From assembly GCA_947478405.1 (NCBI GenBank), contig CANJVX010000005.1, forward strand, positions 2,255 through 66,254: a DNA stretch of 64,000 nucleotides. Direction: 5' to 3'. Position 1 is the stretch's first letter; every line of letters starts with the position of its first letter. Shown in pieces: positions 11,632-16,996 of this stretch. This stretch comes from Beijerinckiaceae bacterium. GTDB lineage: Bacteria > Pseudomonadota > Alphaproteobacteria > Rhizobiales > Beijerinckiaceae. The notes beneath the pieces were generated by a model, which searched no databases, was not told the DNA's origin, and saw only the letters and a list, made by a program, of their open reading frames with translations. The position numbers were made by a program, and so were the translations under genes.

Positions 11632-11916
11632 ATGGGAATGGCTAGGAAAAGGCATAAGGCGGAAGAGATTGTCGCCAAACTTCGGCAGGTTGAAGCTCTG
11701 ACAGCACAAGGGCGGCCATTTACAGAGGCTAGAAGGCCGATAAGCGTAACGGCAGTTACCTATTATCGCTGGCGGTCGGAATATAATGATCGAAAAGGCG
11801 ATAAGGTTAAGCGCCTTAAAGAGCTCGAGGCAGAGAAGAATTTCTTTCGCCGAGCAGTCTCAGATCTCACCATTAAGACGCGGATTTTAAAAGAGGCCGC
11901 AGGAAAGAGCTTCTAA
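11632..11916 (+). pseudogene. IS3-family transposase OrfA-like HTH protein, degenerate
   Basis: ARKRHKAEEIVAKLRQVEAL...YYRWRSEY...VKRLKELEAEKNFFRRAVSDLTIKTRILKEAAGKSF resembles IS3-group OrfA (HTH plus leucine zipper). No intact OrfB follows. Confidence 0.55.
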
Positions 11917-12570: not shown

Positions 12571-13404
12571 ATGGCTCATCCGCTTGTCGGTAAATACGAA
12601 TCGACCGACCTCACGGCGCTGGCGCCAGAGGACCGCGCCTTCGCGCGCACCGAGATCAAGGATGTACTATCTGGCAAGGGCAAGGGAAAGCTGAGCCCTG
12701 AAGACCGGGTCATTCTCCTGCGTCTTTGGATGGAAACTTTCGAGCGTCCGTCCCAACCCGCAACTGCCACTGAAATCGCCAATGGGCCAGCCCCATCCCT
12801 GCCGAAGGCAAAGGCGGCCCCTAAGCAGGCCAGACGCATTCCCAGCCTGTCAATGCCGAAATTCACGGCGATCCGCGCCATCTTCAGCGCACTTGCCATT
12901 TTACGACTTTCTGACCTCGCCTTTCTCTGCTGCTGCATCGGCATATCAGCCGCTGTGATTTCAGCAGGTGCCCACTCAATGCGCGAATCGCTTCGCATCG
13001 AAGATGTGAAGCGCGACGCGGAAGCGGTTGTCGCCTGGATCAAGGAAAATGGCGGCGATAAACGCGCGGAAGAAAGTTTCCAGCCTGCGGTCTGCAACAA
13101 GGCCAGTACGGATACATGGAAAGGATGCATTGCAGCCTTGAGCGCGGACGGCGGACCATTTGTAGACAAGAAGAGCCGCTTTGATCCCTCACGTGATTTC
13201 TTTACTGTAAAATGCGACATGAGCAATCCCGACTCAGTCGGGACGATCATCCTTGAAAAAGGCGCTGTTCCGCTTGGTGGCTCCTCTATTGCCTACACCG
13301 CCCTTGATGGATCGGAAGGCCTCACCAAAGACTTGATGCTGCGCGTCATTGTCTGCGGCCGCGGCTTTCACCTGATCAAAGTCGCCACCGATTTGACCTT
13401 CTGA
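12571..13404 (+). CDS. hypothetical membrane-anchored protein (unknown family)
   Basis: 277 aa. Charged N-terminal part, a hydrophobic segment AIRAIFSALAILRLSDLAFLCCCIGISAAVISAGA, then a Cys-containing ~140-aa C-terminal domain. Ordinary protein composition, unlike its S/R-rich antisense ORF. Stop lies 13 nt before the channel gene. Confidence 0.55.
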   Translation: MAHPLVGKYESTDLTALAPEDRAFARTEIKDVLSGKGKGKLSPEDRVILLRLWMETFERPSQPATATEIANGPAPSLPKAKAAPKQARRIPSLSMPKFTAIRAIFSALAILRLSDLAFLCCCIGISAAVISAGAHSMRESLRIEDVKRDAEAVVAWIKENGGDKRAEESFQPAVCNKASTDTWKGCIAALSADGGPFVDKKSRFDPSRDFFTVKCDMSNPDSVGTIILEKGAVPLGGSSIAYTALDGSEGLTKDLMLRVIVCGRGFHLIKVATDLTF

Positions 13405-13417
13405 AGGATGTGACGAA

Positions 13418-15130
13418 ATGAGCACCCCGACGAAGGATCCCGCGACAGACGCACCCGGAGCTGCCCCCGCTGCGGCAAAAAATGCTTCTGTCAAAGCGAA
13501 AGCGCCTGCCCGCAAACCATTTCGCCGCATCATCTATGATTGGCTTTACAAGCCAGAAAACGGTGTGCCAACCAATAAGAATTTCGAGAATTGGTTGTCG
13601 GCTCTGATCATCGCGAATATCGCAAGCATGATCCTCGAAACGATTCCCTCACTCGCTCCTTATGAGCACTTGCTTCGTTATTTCGAGTTATTCTCGATCT
13701 TCATTTTTACCGGTGAATATCTGATTCGCCTCTTGATCGCGCCGGAAGATCCGGATTTCAAGGAAGCGACAAGCCCACGGCTGAAATATCTTTTCTCATT
13801 CTTTGCAATCATCGACGCCCTTGTGATCGTACCCTTCTATTTGGGGTCTCTAGGGACATTCGATCTGCGCTTTCTGCGTATTTTGCGTCTTCTGAAATTG
13901 CTGCGCATCCTGTTGCCTGCATTTGAAGAGTTCCGTAAACTCAATGAGGGTAGAACCTTCCGCCAACGCATCCACGCGCTTGTCTTTCCAAGCCCTTATG
14001 GGGGACAGATCCACAATATTTACGACCTCTTCATTGTCTTTTGGGTGCTAATCTCGGTTCTGGCTGTCATTCTGGAATCGGTCGATTCAATCTATTATAA
14101 TGTAGCCGTCGAATTCGTCGTCCTTGATGCCGTCGCAGTGCTCGTCTTCTCTTTCGAATATTTGATGCGCGCCTATTCCTGCGTGGAGGAACCGCGATTC
14201 AAGAGGCTGATCGTCGGTCGCCTGAGTTATCTTACAAAGCCTGGGGCGATTATCGACTTTCTCGCGATAAGCCCCTTCTTTTTAGAATATTTTCTGCATC
14301 ACCTCGTAGACTTGCGTTTCCTGCGGTCGTTCCGCTTGATGCGCTTGTTCAAGCTCGCCCGCTATACAGGATCAACCGGTACGCTCTTCACTATCATCCG
14401 CCGTGAGGCGCCGGTTCTGGCAACCTCCGCCTTCACGCTTATGCTCCTTGTCGTCTTGGTGGCGAGCCTTGGCTACCTGTTTGAGCATGAAGCCCAGCCT
14501 GAGAAATTCGAAAACATTCCAACAGCGATCTATTGGGCTGTGATCACTCTCGCCTCGGTCGGCTACGGCGATATCTCGCCCATCACACCGATGGGTCGTT
14601 TTATGACCACTCTCATGGCACTCATCGGCTTGGGCCTCTTTGCTATCCCTGCCTCAATTCTCTCATCCGCATTTACGCAAGAGCTGCAGTCACAACGTCA
14701 GGCAGTCGAAAATCAACTATTTGAAATGCTGGATGACGGAGTTCTCTCGCCGGAAGAAGAAGTAGAAGCTCGCAAGCTTGCGCGCAAAATGAATTTGTCA
14801 GACGAGCAGATGGATATTCTGATCGAAAAAGCCAAGCGCGAGACCGAAGAGCGGGCGCGCAATGATATTTTCATTCCTGTCGACTATCTCGCGGAACATT
14901 CCAGTATTGCGGCGGCACAATTCCGGGTCCTGTTCGAACAGCTCAAACGCATCGCGCATCTGCCAAATGCTTCCGATGTTTCGCAACATCTCTTCTCCGG
15001 CCATAACATGGGCGAGGTAGAGCGCGATCTTTGGAACAGGCTTCACCAGGGCGAAAAGAAACCGCCAGCGAAACCCGCACAGGCAAAGAGCAAGAAAAAA
15101 CCGCCTGAGCCCAAGCCATCCACGAGCTGA
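13418..15130 (+). CDS. voltage-gated K+ channel-like protein with two tandem S1-S4 voltage-sensor modules and one pore
   Basis: Two S4 segments with basic residues every third position: LRFLRILRLLKLLRIL (13868-13906) and LRFLRSFRLMRLFKLAR (14315-14365). One S5-P-S6 pore with K+ filter TLASVGYGD (14546-14572). Confidence 0.8.
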   Translation: MSTPTKDPATDAPGAAPAAAKNASVKAKAPARKPFRRIIYDWLYKPENGVPTNKNFENWLSALIIANIASMILETIPSLAPYEHLLRYFELFSIFIFTGEYLIRLLIAPEDPDFKEATSPRLKYLFSFFAIIDALVIVPFYLGSLGTFDLRFLRILRLLKLLRILLPAFEEFRKLNEGRTFRQRIHALVFPSPYGGQIHNIYDLFIVFWVLISVLAVILESVDSIYYNVAVEFVVLDAVAVLVFSFEYLMRAYSCVEEPRFKRLIVGRLSYLTKPGAIIDFLAISPFFLEYFLHHLVDLRFLRSFRLMRLFKLARYTGSTGTLFTIIRREAPVLATSAFTLMLLVVLVASLGYLFEHEAQPEKFENIPTAIYWAVITLASVGYGDISPITPMGRFMTTLMALIGLGLFAIPASILSSAFTQELQSQRQAVENQLFEMLDDGVLSPEEEVEARKLARKMNLSDEQMDILIEKAKRETEERARNDIFIPVDYLAEHSSIAAAQFRVLFEQLKRIAHLPNASDVSQHLFSGHNMGEVERDLWNRLHQGEKKPPAKPAQAKSKKKPPEPKPSTS

Positions 15131-15161: not shown

Positions 15162-15545
15162 CTAATTCCGACAGGTGTCCTCGACGACGCTGCCGTTGCC
15201 ATAAAAATAGCGAACCCATTTTTTCTGGCGCCCAAAAAAAGCGACGCCATCACGATCACCATAATGAACGCGCACGGATGCCCAGACCAAAGCGCCGTCT
15301 TCATCTACCTGGCTTCGTTTGATGGTCCATGGCGGAGCAAATTGGGGATTTGAATTGCTCAGAGCATTCCGCGTGCTGTCGAACACAACCAGATAGACGC
15401 CCTGCTCGCCGCGGCAGGTCATGCGAAATTCTTCCGCATGCGCACTTGCGCATGCGACCACCAGCATCGCCGCCGAAAAAAAGAAGGGTCTCACTGGGCT
15501 GTCCAAACAAATCGCATGGGAAACACTTTGCTGTTTCGCCTGCAC
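15162..15545 (-). CDS. hypothetical secreted protein
   Basis: 127-aa ORF (GTG start) with hydrophobic leader ...FFFSAAMLVVACASAHA/EEF and two Cys. No recognised family; start uncertain. Confidence 0.4.
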   Translation of the reverse strand: MQAKQQSVSHAICLDSPVRPFFFSAAMLVVACASAHAEEFRMTCRGEQGVYLVVFDSTRNALSNSNPQFAPPWTIKRSQVDEDGALVWASVRVHYGDRDGVAFFGRQKKWVRYFYGNGSVVEDTCRN

Positions 15546-15787: not shown

Positions 15788-16996
15788 ATGTTGGGTTGCA
15801 GGATTGCCATTATCGGCGGTGGGCTCGCGGGCCTGGCGGCTGCCAACGCCCTTCGTACCCATGGAATTCAGGCCGAAGTTTTTGAGGCGGCCTCGGAATT
15901 GGGCGAAATCGGCGCCTCGGTCAATTGCAGCCCGCAGGCAGTGAAGGCTCTACATGCCGTGGGCGTTGGCCCTCAAGTGGATGCCATTGGCCATAAATCG
16001 CCGGGCCCCGTCACGCGCAATATGATCACGGGCGAGTTCCTCGAATATAGCAATCGCTTCGAGCTCGCTGGGCGCTATGGCATGCCCTATTATTGCTTCC
16101 ACCGCGCTGATCTCATCGATGCGCTCGCCGAGCCACTCGACCGAAGCCACATTCATCTTGGCCACCGCCTGCAAAAAGCGGATGTGCATAAGGATGGGGT
16201 CACTCTGCATTTCACCAATGGCAAGTCGGTAGATGCAGACTTTGTGATCGCTGCTGATGGCGTGAAATCAGTGATGCGCCAAACACTCTATGGCAATGAC
16301 AACCCGACCTTTACCGGACAAATGGTCTGGCGCGCGCTTCTCAAGGCAGAAGATGTTCCTGCCGAATGCCTTGAACCGCATGGCCATGTGCAATGGGTCG
16401 GCCCCGGCCGCCATTTGATTGCCTATTACATTCGCCAGAACCGGCTCGTGAATGTCGTCTCGCAAGTCGATAGCGATGTGTGGGAAGAAGAAGGCTGGGC
16501 GATCAAGGGCGATCCTGATCTGATGCGCGCCAGCTACCCCAATGCTGAGCCGCGTCTCGTGAAACTGCTCGAAACCGTCAAAGAATGTTCCAAATGGGGC
16601 CTGTTTACGCGCCCCATCACCAACAATTGGGGCTTTGGCCGCATTCAGCTGATTGGCGATGCCGCTCATGCCATGGTGCCGAGTGTCGGCCAAGGGGCAT
16701 GCATGGCATTTGAGGATTCCTACATTCTCGGTCGCTGGATGGAAAAATGCGCTGATCCCGTCGAAGCCTTTGAAAATTTCCGCAAGGTGCGGATTCCTCG
16801 CGTTCACGGCGTGCAGAACCTCTCAAACTCGGCCAACAAATTTAAGCATATGGCCGATCAGGACAAGCAGAAGAAAGAAATCAAATCTGGCAATGGCACA
16901 CATGGCAAGATTGACTGGGTCTGGGGCTTTGAACCAGCACAGGATTGGGACAAAGTGCCCACCAATGTGCCAGCGGCCTATGCCACTCCTGCCTGA
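15788..16996 (+). CDS. FAD-dependent aromatic-ring monooxygenase (salicylate / 3-hydroxybenzoate hydroxylase-like)
   Basis: GAGGAGG RBS. GxGxxG motif IAIIGGGLAGLAAANAL and GDAAHAMVPSVGQGACMAFED motif. Confidence 0.85.
   Translation: MLGCRIAIIGGGLAGLAAANALRTHGIQAEVFEAASELGEIGASVNCSPQAVKALHAVGVGPQVDAIGHKSPGPVTRNMITGEFLEYSNRFELAGRYGMPYYCFHRADLIDALAEPLDRSHIHLGHRLQKADVHKDGVTLHFTNGKSVDADFVIAADGVKSVMRQTLYGNDNPTFTGQMVWRALLKAEDVPAECLEPHGHVQWVGPGRHLIAYYIRQNRLVNVVSQVDSDVWEEEGWAIKGDPDLMRASYPNAEPRLVKLLETVKECSKWGLFTRPITNNWGFGRIQLIGDAAHAMVPSVGQGACMAFEDSYILGRWMEKCADPVEAFENFRKVRIPRVHGVQNLSNSANKFKHMADQDKQKKEIKSGNGTHGKIDWVWGFEPAQDWDKVPTNVPAAYATPA

What the first reader, a model, noticed from the sequence alone, without database searches (positions are those of the whole stretch)
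13418..15130. K+ channel subunit with two tandem voltage-sensor modules before a single pore
The 570-aa product has two complete S1-S4-like modules. Each ends in a textbook S4 with Arg/Lys at every third position: LRFLRILRLLKLLRIL (13868-13906) and LRFLRSFRLMRLFKLAR (14315-14365). There is only one S5-P-S6 pore, with a canonical filter TLASVGYGD (14546-14572).

KvAP-type channels have one sensor per pore subunit, and two-pore channels duplicate the whole sensor-plus-pore unit. A VSD-VSD-pore subunit would place eight sensors around a tetrameric pore. I am not aware of this having been characterised. The cytoplasmic tail shows no RCK or cyclic-nucleotide-binding pattern and ends in a Lys/Pro-rich tract.
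Basis: partly seen in the sequence, partly recalled or inferred. Interest (0 to 1): 0.65.

Follow-up and report, generated by a model that had tools for sequence, protein, structure and literature searches.

The report
Potassium channel with two voltage sensors
This is a real, expressed and widely conserved bacterial gene for a potassium channel subunit with two complete voltage sensors ahead of a single pore, always paired with an unknown membrane protein; I found no description of this layout, and it offers a natural test of what extra voltage sensors do.

Summary
ORF 13418-15130 (+) encodes 570 aa. Residues 52-166 and 198-317 are each a complete S1-S4 voltage sensor, followed by one S5-P-S6 pore with filter TLASVGYGD. 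Sensor 1 alone passes Pfam Ion_trans (54.5 bits). Its family profile hits Kv4, BacNav and KCNQ sensors in the PDB (E to 7e-10). The two sensors are 35% identical (E 2e-14).

It is not an artefact. Independent assemblies show no indel. At least 565 species-level genomes, mostly freshwater Burkholderiales and Hyphomicrobiales, carry full-length orthologs. In 79 orthologs the S4 charges and charge-transfer residues of both sensors are near-invariant. dN/dS is about 0.06 for each sensor.

New findings:
- A 277-aa single-pass membrane protein of unknown fold, with four invariant cysteines, lies immediately upstream in 76 of 80 loci (median gap 8 nt).
- 31 of 78 loci add two single-sensor channel genes with altered filters.
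- Relatives with three and four sensors before one pore exist.

Eight literature searches and the PDB hold no description of this layout. Best reading: a tetrameric Kv-type K+ channel with eight sensors. Sensor 2 gates the pore; sensor 1 is an accessory sensor, possibly acting with the partner. The mechanism is inferred. Verdict: new variant of a known kind.

The parts
12571..13404 (+). Conserved partner gene (277 aa). Cytoplasmic N-domain, disordered linker, one TM helix continuing as a long stalk helix (about residues 113-160), and a C-terminal beta-sheet domain with four invariant cysteines (C175, C186, C215, C262). Predicted N-in / C-out.
   Evidence: ORF; a homolog lies immediately 5' of the channel on the same strand in 76/80 loci, with a median gap of 8 nt; alignment and invariant Cys. 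AF2 model at pLDDT 78; no Pfam family; no PDB fold match. Topology is inferred from the positive charges before the TM helix and from the conserved cysteines.
13418..15130 (+). Channel ORF, 570 aa plus stop: sensor 1, linker, sensor 2, pore, tail.
13418..13570 (+). N-terminal cytoplasmic segment (residues 1-51). Poorly conserved and basic, with a short pre-S1 helix at residues 35-44.
   Evidence: pLDDT below 50 for residues 1-29; mean pairwise identity 0.35; dN/dS 0.15-0.35.
13571..13915 (+). Voltage sensor 1 (S1-S4, residues 52-166). Key residues: E74 (S1); E90, F97, E100 and R104 (S2); D133 (S3).
   Evidence: Ion_trans profile 2-109, 54.5 bits; family profile against the PDB; conservation in 79 orthologs; dN/dS about 0.06. 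AF2 helices 52-74, 77-110, 120-145 and 150-175.
13865..13912 (+). S4 of sensor 1: LRFLRILRLLKLLRIL, with charges R151, R154, R157, K160 and R163. The window's clade lacks one helical turn (3 aa, one Arg) that most relatives have.
13916..14008 (+). Inter-sensor cytoplasmic linker (residues 167-197), with the highly conserved motif PAxxEFxxLNxGRTFRQxxHALVFPSxYGG.
   Evidence: invariant columns; identity 0.66, higher than either sensor; dN/dS about 0.035.
14009..14368 (+). Voltage sensor 2 (S1-S4, residues 198-317). Key residues: E220; D237, F244, E247 and R251; D280.
   Evidence: all of these are 78-79/79; dN/dS 0.05-0.07.
14312..14362 (+). S4 of sensor 2: LRFLRSFRLMRLFKLAR, with charges R300, R303, R306, R309, K312 and R315.
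   Evidence: 79/79 at every charge.
14369..14692 (+). S4-S5 linker, S5, pore helix, selectivity filter and S6 (residues 318-425). S6 carries G404 and an 'IPAS' motif that aligns with the 'LPAG' of KCNQ S6.
   Evidence: Ion_trans_2; alignment to KCNQ4/5; identity 0.76; dN/dS 0.02-0.03.
14546..14572 (+). Selectivity filter region TLASVGYGD.
   Evidence: 79/79 at 8 of 9 positions.
14693..15052 (+). Helical cytoplasmic tail (residues 426-545) with the conserved motif LxxMLxDGxxSxxE. No recognised domain.
   Evidence: helices; only sub-threshold TerB-like hits, E 0.004-0.07.
15053..15127 (+). Lys/Pro-rich, unconserved C-terminal end (residues 546-570).
   Evidence: pLDDT below 50.

Best explanation
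The gene encodes a K+-selective, Kv-type voltage-gated channel subunit with 10 transmembrane helices plus a P-loop. An old internal duplication gave it two diverged voltage sensors, both intact and facing the same way, ahead of one pore.

Four subunits must combine to make the pore, so the channel would carry eight sensors (inferred). Sensor 2 is the canonical gating sensor. It joins S5 through a Kv1/Kv7-length S4-S5 linker, and S6 has a Gly hinge and a Pro-containing gate motif (shown by sequence).

Sensor 1 is most likely a second, working voltage sensor. It would modulate gating allosterically through the very conserved cytoplasmic linker that ties its S4 to S1 of sensor 2. That could steepen or shift the voltage dependence, or add a separate process such as inactivation, much as the unlike sensors of Nav, Cav and TPC channels divide their work (inferred).

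The channel is made from a two-gene operon with a single-pass membrane protein whose cysteine-rich domain probably faces the periplasm. That protein most likely acts as an auxiliary subunit, in the manner of DPP6, KCNE or BK-beta (inferred from synteny only).
For: - Architecture.
- Sensor 1 is a true sensor homolog.
- Both sensors keep the full Kv charge-transfer set (outer acid, then Phe 7 residues on, then Glu 3 further on, S3 Asp, 5-6 S4 charges) in 79 orthologs.
- Purifying selection on both sensors (dN/dS about 0.06) and on the linker (about 0.035).
- K+ filter invariant.
- Closest solved relatives over residues 198-428 are KCNQ4/5/2, Kv1.x and Kv4.x.
- No indels in independent assemblies.
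- At least 565 species-level genomes carry it.
- Transcribed in freshwater metatranscriptomes, with one contig spanning the partner stop and the channel start.
- Partner adjacent in 76/80 loci, median gap 8 nt.
- Sensor-1 copies and sensor-2 copies form separate groups, indicating one old duplication.
Against: - No functional data exist.
- The AF2 monomer is only moderate (mean pLDDT 65.6, pTM 0.44, pore below 50). It gives no reliable placement of sensor 1 relative to the pore, and no multimer model could be run.
- Sensor 1 has no pore domain of its own to act on, so its coupling route is conjecture.
- Conserved charges could also serve folding or partner binding.
- R151 is His in 7 of 79 orthologs, and the window's clade has lost one S4-1 charge, so sensor 1 tolerates more change than sensor 2.
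- Physical association of the partner with the channel is not shown.
- Polarity of gating (opened by depolarisation or hyperpolarisation) cannot be read from sequence.
Confidence: 0.6

Rival explanations
1. Sensor 1 is mainly a membrane scaffold, not a working sensor. It would have been retained as the docking site for the conserved single-pass partner, or for assembly and localisation. Only sensor 2 would respond to voltage.
For: - The partner is strictly linked to this family. It is absent beside the independently duplicated multi-sensor channels.
- Sensor 1 is somewhat less conserved than sensor 2 (0.59 against 0.65 mean identity). It tolerates R151H and the loss of one S4 turn.
- In Kv4-DPP6, a known case, a single-pass partner binds the sensor periphery (established knowledge; not tested here).
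Against: A pure scaffold would not need F97, E100, D133, R157, K160 and R163 to stay at 78-79/79 in exact Kv register. Nor would it need dN/dS as low as sensor 2's. The triple-sensor relative keeps six charges in every S4 without a partner nearby.
Confidence: 0.2
2. Sensor 1 has an output of its own, independent of the K+ pore. It might conduct protons or ions like Hv1. Or it might pass voltage to the partner's periplasmic domain, as the sensor of a voltage-sensing phosphatase drives its enzyme. The subunit would then be bifunctional.
For: - Sensors that work without a pore domain are established (Hv1, Ci-VSP; established knowledge).
- Sensor 1 is not directly attached to a pore.
- S1 of sensor 1 has an invariant mid-helix polar residue, N67.
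- A conserved partner of unknown fold is co-encoded.
Against: The hydrophobic plug residue F97 and the complete counter-charge set argue for a sealed, Kv-like sensor rather than a conducting one. No enzymatic domain is detected in the channel or the partner. This is speculative.
Confidence: 0.1
3. The two-sensor reading frame is an artefact: a frameshift, a mis-assembly, or two adjacent genes fused by an error.
For: None found.
Against: - Contigs from independent runs cross the junction at nt 13916-14008 with no indel or joint.
- More than 100 protein clusters and at least 565 genome loci keep the same continuous frame at 47-82% identity.
- The linker is the second most conserved segment.
- There is no Met codon in residues 167-205 from which a second gene could start.
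Confidence: 0.01

Closest known systems
Canonical 6TM voltage-gated K+ channels (KvAP, Kv1.2/Shaker, Kv4, Kv7/KCNQ)
   Same: Residues 198-428 align end to end with KCNQ4/5/2, Kv1.x and Kv4.x (E to 8e-24; Foldseek E about 1e-7). Shared features are the S4 with Arg/Lys every third residue, the S2 Phe-x-x-Glu charge-transfer centre, the S3 Asp, a long S4-S5 linker, an SVGYGD filter and an S6 Gly hinge with a Pro-containing gate motif.
   Different: A second complete sensor (residues 52-166) and a conserved 31-residue linker precede the canonical unit. There is no T1 domain and no calmodulin-binding helices. The cytoplasmic tail is unrelated to theirs. An unrelated single-pass partner is co-encoded.
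Two-pore channels (TPC1-3) and four-domain Nav/Cav channels
   Same: One polypeptide carries more than one, non-identical voltage sensor, and in those channels the sensors have specialised roles (established knowledge). This is the model for how two unlike sensors may divide their work here.
   Different: In TPC, Nav and Cav every sensor comes with its own pore domain: (sensor-pore) x2 or x4. Here there are two sensors and one pore domain, so the pore would have 8 sensors rather than 4.
Sensor-only proteins (Hv1 proton channel, Ci-VSP/TPTE voltage-sensing phosphatases, TMEM266)
   Same: A voltage sensor that is not followed by its own pore domain, as sensor 1 is here.
   Different: Sensor 1 is covalently followed by another sensor and a K+ pore. 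No phosphatase or coiled-coil is present, and it keeps the Kv-type hydrophobic plug Phe.
Single-pass auxiliary subunits of Kv-type channels (DPP6/DPP10 with Kv4, KCNE with Kv7, BK beta subunits)
   Same: The co-encoded partner is a membrane protein with one TM helix and a sizeable domain outside the cell, and it is genetically tied to the channel. This is an analogy by topology only.
   Different: There is no sequence or fold similarity to any of them. Physical association is untested.
E. coli Kch and MVP-type prokaryotic channels (the names given by annotation pipelines)
   Same: Prokaryotic 6TM K+ channel homologs. Some databases label this family 'Kch'.
   Different: The Kch model scores 38 bits against a cut-off of 425, and the MVP model 66 bits against 300. 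There is no RCK/TrkA domain. The label is a generic transfer, not a membership.

Membership tests
Voltage-gated ion channel superfamily (Pfam Ion_trans PF00520) | Match to the Ion_trans profile above the gathering score | tested here: met
   153.6 bits for the whole protein, in two stretches. The N-terminal part alone scores 54.5 bits (profile 2-109) and the C-terminal part 110 bits (profile 1-238), against a cut-off of 25.
K+-selective tetrameric channels | Pore helix plus signature filter T/S-V/I-G-Y/F-G-D between two TM helices | tested here: met
   TLASVGYGD at residues 377-385, and Ion_trans_2 at 61.6 bits. The filter is invariant in 79 orthologs.
K+-selective tetrameric channels | Assembly of four P-loops; measured K+ selectivity | not testable with these tools
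   No multimer prediction or electrophysiology was available. The tetramer is inferred from established channel architecture.
Kv-type voltage-gated K+ channels | S4 with at least 4 basic residues at every third position, plus the charge-transfer centre (S2 outer acid, Phe, inner Glu; S3 Asp) | tested here: met
   Met twice. Sensor 1: E/D90, F97, E100, D133 and R151/R154/R157/K160/R163. Sensor 2: D237, F244, E247, D280 and R300/R303/R306/R309/K312/R315.
Kv-type voltage-gated K+ channels | One sensor per pore-forming subunit (6TM topology) | tested here: not met
   Two sensors precede one pore, giving 10 TM helices plus a P-loop.
Kv-type voltage-gated K+ channels | Voltage-dependent opening | not testable with these tools
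   Requires recording.
Two-pore channels (TPC) | Two sensor-plus-pore repeats in one chain | tested here: not met
   Only one Ion_trans_2 / pore match. True (sensor-pore) x2 proteins were seen among distant hits and look different.
Kch (NCBIfam PRK10537) | Score above the curated cut-off; RCK/TrkA-N domain | tested here: not met
   38 bits against 425. No RCK domain in Pfam.
MVP-type hyperpolarisation-activated K+ channel (NCBIfam NF040645) | Score above the curated cut-off | tested here: not met
   66.3 bits against 300.
Cyclic-nucleotide-regulated K+ channels (MlotiK1/SthK type) | C-terminal cNMP-binding domain | tested here: not met
   No cNMP_binding hit in the window protein. The unrelated four-sensor relative P0150 does have one.
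Type IV pilin-like proteins (considered for the partner) | Pilin fold: N-terminal helix packed on a beta-sheet, with similarity to solved pilins | tested here: not met
   Foldseek against the PDB gave no match with E below 1. No Pfam family either.

The most novel reading that the evidence does not exclude
Bacteria hold a natural series of K+ channels in which each pore subunit carries two, three or four working voltage sensors in a row, giving 8 to 16 sensors per pore. The series arose several times independently. In the largest family, the window's, the extra sensor works with an obligatory periplasm-facing partner protein of a new fold. Such channels could have a voltage dependence steeper than, or of a different shape from, any known channel. 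Their coupling route would be sensor to sensor rather than sensor to pore, which has not been described.
Probability: 0.35. Interest if true: 0.85.

Novelty: new variant of a known kind. Interest (0 to 1): 0.62.

Why it matters
All characterised voltage-gated cation channels pair each sensor with a pore domain, giving four sensors per pore. How sensors couple to the gate, and how much charge a channel can move, are central questions in the field.

A natural, strongly conserved sensor-sensor-pore subunit, with three- and four-sensor relatives, would show that sensors can be stacked. It would make sensor-to-sensor coupling directly testable by deleting or neutralising one sensor. It could also supply parts for steeper or tunable voltage-responsive proteins.

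The family is common in abundant freshwater bacteria such as Limnohabitans, Polaromonas and Beijerinckiaceae. Their use of membrane voltage is almost unexplored. The family also comes with an uncharacterised partner protein.

Tried and rejected
- **Frameshift or fusion artefact.** Rejected: contigs from four runs show no indel or joint, and the frame is conserved in hundreds of orthologs.
- **Partner has a pilin-like fold.** Suggested by the AF2 secondary structure. Rejected: Foldseek against the PDB found nothing with E below 1, and there is no Pfam family.
- **Repeat unit includes the pre-S1 helix.** Not supported: local alignment z = 0.3.
- **Tail is a TerB-like domain.** Only sub-threshold hits in 3 of 6 tails tested (E 0.004-0.07). 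Left as inconclusive.
- **Sensor 1 against the PDB as a single sequence.** Gave only one weak hit, E 4e-4. The family profile was needed.
- **Partner accompanies all multi-sensor channels.** Rejected: it was not found beside P0125, P0139, P0170, P0150 or the P0128 type. Several of those contigs are short.
- **Literature.** The first search was swamped by the word 'prokaryotic'. Seven further searches with varied wording found no description of the architecture.
- **AF2 monomer.** It gave no usable pore model or inter-domain geometry (pore pLDDT below 50, pTM 0.44). I draw no conclusion about where sensor 1 sits.
- **dN/dS.** Values are rough because dS is saturated (above 1, some undefined).
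- **Sensor tree.** It is a simple identity-based neighbour-joining tree without support values.
Full report
**1. The observation**

The window has an ATG-initiated ORF at 13418..15130 (+) of 570 aa. The quoted motifs are present:
- S4 of module 1, LRFLRILRLLKLLRIL, is residues 150-165 (nt 13865-13912).
- S4 of module 2, LRFLRSFRLMRLFKLAR, is residues 299-315 (nt 14312-14362), 3 nt off.
- The filter TLASVGYGD is residues 377-385 (nt 14546-14572), exact.

Pfam finds Ion_trans in two stretches and Ion_trans_2 once. Scanned separately, residues 1-196 match Ion_trans profile positions 2-109, that is S1-S4 only, at 54.5 bits (E 1.2e-14, cut-off 25). The remainder matches the full profile 1-238 plus the pore model.

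The two modules are 35% identical over about 105 residues (E 2e-14). The repeat units align globally at z = 16 over shuffles. No RCK or cyclic-nucleotide-binding domain is present, and the protein ends in a Lys/Pro-rich tract.

**2. Is module 1 a real voltage sensor?**

A profile built only from module-1 segments of 14 family members hits the S1-S4 sensors of several solved channels:
- Kv4.3 and Kv4.2, E 7e-10
- a bacterial sodium channel (4bgn), E 2e-9
- KCNQ2
- Nav1.7 domain II
- the isolated KCNQ1 sensor (6mie)

In that alignment its F-x-x-E-Y-x-x-R lies on the Kv4 S2 motif, and its IID lies on S3.

AlphaFold2, given an 18-sequence alignment, models helices 52-74, 77-110, 120-145 and 150-175 at pLDDT about 70-87. 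Module 2 is modelled equally well. The pore scores below 50, as expected for a lone subunit.

Across 79 orthologs both modules keep the full Kv charge-transfer set in exact register:
- Module 1: acid at 90 in 79/79, F97 79/79, E100 79/79, R104 79/79, D133 79/79. The S4 charges are R151 70/79 (His in 7), R154 72 Arg plus 7 Lys, R157 79/79, K160 78/79 and R163 78/79.
- Module 2: D237 78/79, and F244, E247, R251, D280 and all six S4 charges at 79/79.

The 7- and 3-residue spacing from outer acid to Phe to inner Glu equals that of Kv1.2 E226-F233-E236 (established knowledge).

Both sensors start and end on the cytoplasmic side, so they face the same way. I infer this from four helices each and a basic N-terminus.

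**3. Not an artefact**

Contigs from four independent freshwater and lake metagenome runs cover the gene with no insertion, deletion or joint. Three of them cross the inter-module junction: X2 contig 13300-14245, X5 13838-14033 and X3 13929-14137.

A search of 5.8 billion clustered proteins lists more than 100 clusters of 530-590 aa covering over 90% of the query, down to 49% identity. The 80 loci retrieved cover nearly the whole protein at 47-82% identity.

Rough dN/dS against four close orthologs is as follows, with dS saturated:

| Segment | dN/dS |
|---|---|
| Sensor 1 | about 0.06 |
| Linker | about 0.035 |
| Sensor 2 | 0.05-0.07 |
| Pore | 0.02-0.03 |

Metatranscriptome contigs from two studies lie on the partner gene and on several parts of the channel gene. 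One starts at 13398, just before the partner's stop codon, and runs into the channel gene. That tool warns that DNA can be present in such runs.

**4. Who has it**

The window's closest relatives (79-82% identity) are Beijerinckiaceae and Hyphomicrobiales MAGs. The bulk of the family is in freshwater Burkholderiales: Limnohabitans, Polaromonas, Rhodoferax, Roseateles, Paucibacter and other Comamonadaceae.

Database names are only 'ion transporter', 'voltage-gated potassium channel (Kch)' or 'hypothetical protein'. The curated Kch and MVP models are far below their cut-offs: 38 against 425 bits, and 66 against 300 bits.

**5. What surrounds it**

The ORF at 12571..13404 (+), 277 aa, stops 13 nt before the channel's ATG. 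A homolog lies immediately upstream on the same strand in 75 of 80 loci, and a fragment sits at the contig start in a 76th. The median gap is 8 nt, with several 4-nt overlaps. This is a tightly coupled two-gene operon conserved across Alpha- and Betaproteobacteria.

The partner has no Pfam family and is 'hypothetical' wherever it is named. Its alignment shows a conserved N-terminal segment, a variable low-complexity stretch, one hydrophobic helix and a C-terminal domain with four invariant cysteines.

AF2 models it at pLDDT 78. The model has a long helix (113-160) and four beta-strands (226-276). Foldseek finds no similar solved fold, with best E about 1. My first impression of a pilin-like fold is therefore not supported.

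From the positive charges before the helix and from the conserved cysteines, I infer an N-in / C-out topology with a disulfide-bonded periplasmic domain. The window contains no other channel or partner copy.

**6. Wider architecture series**

An exhaustive profile search of 1.84 billion representatives, annotated with sub-profiles for sensor, linker, pore and tail, shows the following:
- About 18 clusters at 50% identity have sensor-sensor-pore.
- One has three sensors before one pore: P0125, 691 aa, 17 cluster members, named from Beijerinckiaceae and Methylocystaceae MAGs. Each of its S4 helices keeps six charges.
- One has four sensors, one pore and a cyclic-nucleotide-binding domain: P0150, 848 aa, found in two independent assemblies.
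- Ordinary (sensor-pore) x2 and x4 concatemers are also present.

A simple neighbour-joining tree of sensor segments groups the family's sensor-1 copies apart from its sensor-2 copies, indicating one old duplication. Sensors 1 and 2 of the triple are 60% identical, indicating a later duplication. The copies within P0150, within P0170 and within P0187/P0255 cluster with each other, indicating independent multiplications. The tree has no support values.

The partner gene was not found next to these other forms, though several of those contigs are short.

In 31 of 78 loci, all Burkholderiales, two further single-sensor 6TM genes follow the double-sensor gene. Their filters are conserved but non-canonical: TSGYGN in the first and ISGWGN or AGWGN in the second. 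The window's lineage lacks them.

**7. How it most likely works**

Shown by sequence: residues 198-428 are a standard Kv unit. They include a K+ filter, a Kv1/Kv7-length S4-S5 linker, and an S6 with G404 and an 'IPAS' motif aligned to the 'LPAG' of KCNQ. The closest solved relatives are KCNQ4/5/2, Kv1.x and Kv4.x.

Inferred:
- Four subunits form the pore, so eight sensors surround it.
- Sensor 2 drives the gate in the canonical way.
- Sensor 1 moves in the same field.
- Sensor 1 acts on sensor 2 or the gate through the inter-sensor linker. That linker is more conserved than either sensor (identity 0.66; motif NxGRTFRQxxHALVFPSxYGG).
- The partner's TM helix may pack against sensor 1, as DPP6, KCNE or BK-beta subunits pack against Kv sensors.

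Rival readings are given separately. In one, sensor 1 is mainly a docking scaffold. In another, it has its own output, Hv1- or VSP-like. The polarity of gating and the physiological role cannot be derived from sequence.

**8. Comparison with what is known, and novelty**

[quoted passage not shown] It fails the one-sensor-per-pore feature that defines 6TM Kv channels, and the two-pore feature that defines TPCs.

Eight full-text searches with varied phrasing found no paper describing a sensor-sensor-pore channel. The last used exact phrases such as 'eight VSDs', 'tandem VSDs' and 'VSD-VSD-PD'. No PDB chain has this layout.

The library lacks most subscription journals, and I could not query InterPro or TCDB. 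A brief mention elsewhere therefore cannot be excluded.

I rate it a new variant of a known kind. It is interesting to channel biophysicists because it offers a natural system for sensor stacking and sensor-to-sensor coupling. It also comes with an uncharacterised, strictly co-inherited partner.

Noticed in passing
window 12571-13404 (+): A 277-aa single-pass membrane protein of unknown family lies directly upstream of the channel gene. It has four invariant cysteines in its C-terminal domain. It is conserved in that position in 76/80 related loci (median gap 8 nt). It has no Pfam family and no PDB fold match.
   Followed up: yes
L030 7650-8555 and 8555-9508 (likewise in 31 of 78 related loci, all Burkholderiales): Two extra single-sensor 6TM channel genes follow the double-sensor gene. 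Their filters are conserved but non-canonical: TSGYGN in the first, ISGWGN/AGWGN in the second. Their C-terminal 'LADGxVxxxE' motif resembles the double-sensor channel's. They may form heteromers. The window lacks them.
   Followed up: partly
P0125 (L083 244-2319) and P0150 (L081 6001-8547): Relatives with three sensors before one pore (691 aa; Beijerinckiaceae and Methylocystaceae MAGs) and with four sensors, one pore and a cNMP-binding domain (848 aa; two independent assemblies). The copies within P0150 cluster together, so that multiplication looks independent.
   Followed up: partly
window 13865-13912 (S4 of sensor 1): The window's clade has a 3-residue (one helical turn) deletion in S4-1 relative to most orthologs (LRLL---KLLR against LRLLRxLKLFR). 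This leaves five charges instead of six. A subgroup of Burkholderiales has His in place of the first Arg.
   Followed up: partly
window 14693-15052 (tail, residues 426-545): The conserved helical tail carries the motif LxxMLxDGxxSxxE. It gives only sub-threshold TerB-like Pfam hits (E 0.004-0.07), and the single-sensor paralogs share the same motif. Its function is unknown.
   Followed up: partly
window 15162-15545 (-): A 127-aa ORF with a hydrophobic N-terminus lies convergent to the channel gene. It has a clear counterpart in the same place in L002 (6985-7362), followed in both by the same 402-aa ORF (window 15788-16996, L002 7555-8763). It has no Pfam family.
   Followed up: no
window 11632-11916 (+): A short 94-aa ORF that by eye resembles the N-terminal helix-turn-helix protein (OrfA) of an IS3-type insertion sequence. 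It lies about 650 nt upstream of the partner gene. Upstream synteny differs from L002 at this point. Not tested.
   Followed up: no
L046 11214-12806, L047 10415-12016, L077 12568-14028: Some Limnohabitans and Comamonadaceae loci carry a second double-sensor-sized channel ORF (486-533 aa) a few kb downstream of the first. Its match to the query spans both sensors and the pore.
   Followed up: no
P0123 (1493 aa), P0136, P0154, P0160, P0222; P0146, P0147, P0158, P0163-P0173: Among the distant hits are (sensor-pore) x4 and x2 concatemers of unknown origin that score highly against this family's profile (P0123: 666 bits). Whether they are bacterial was not checked.
   Followed up: no
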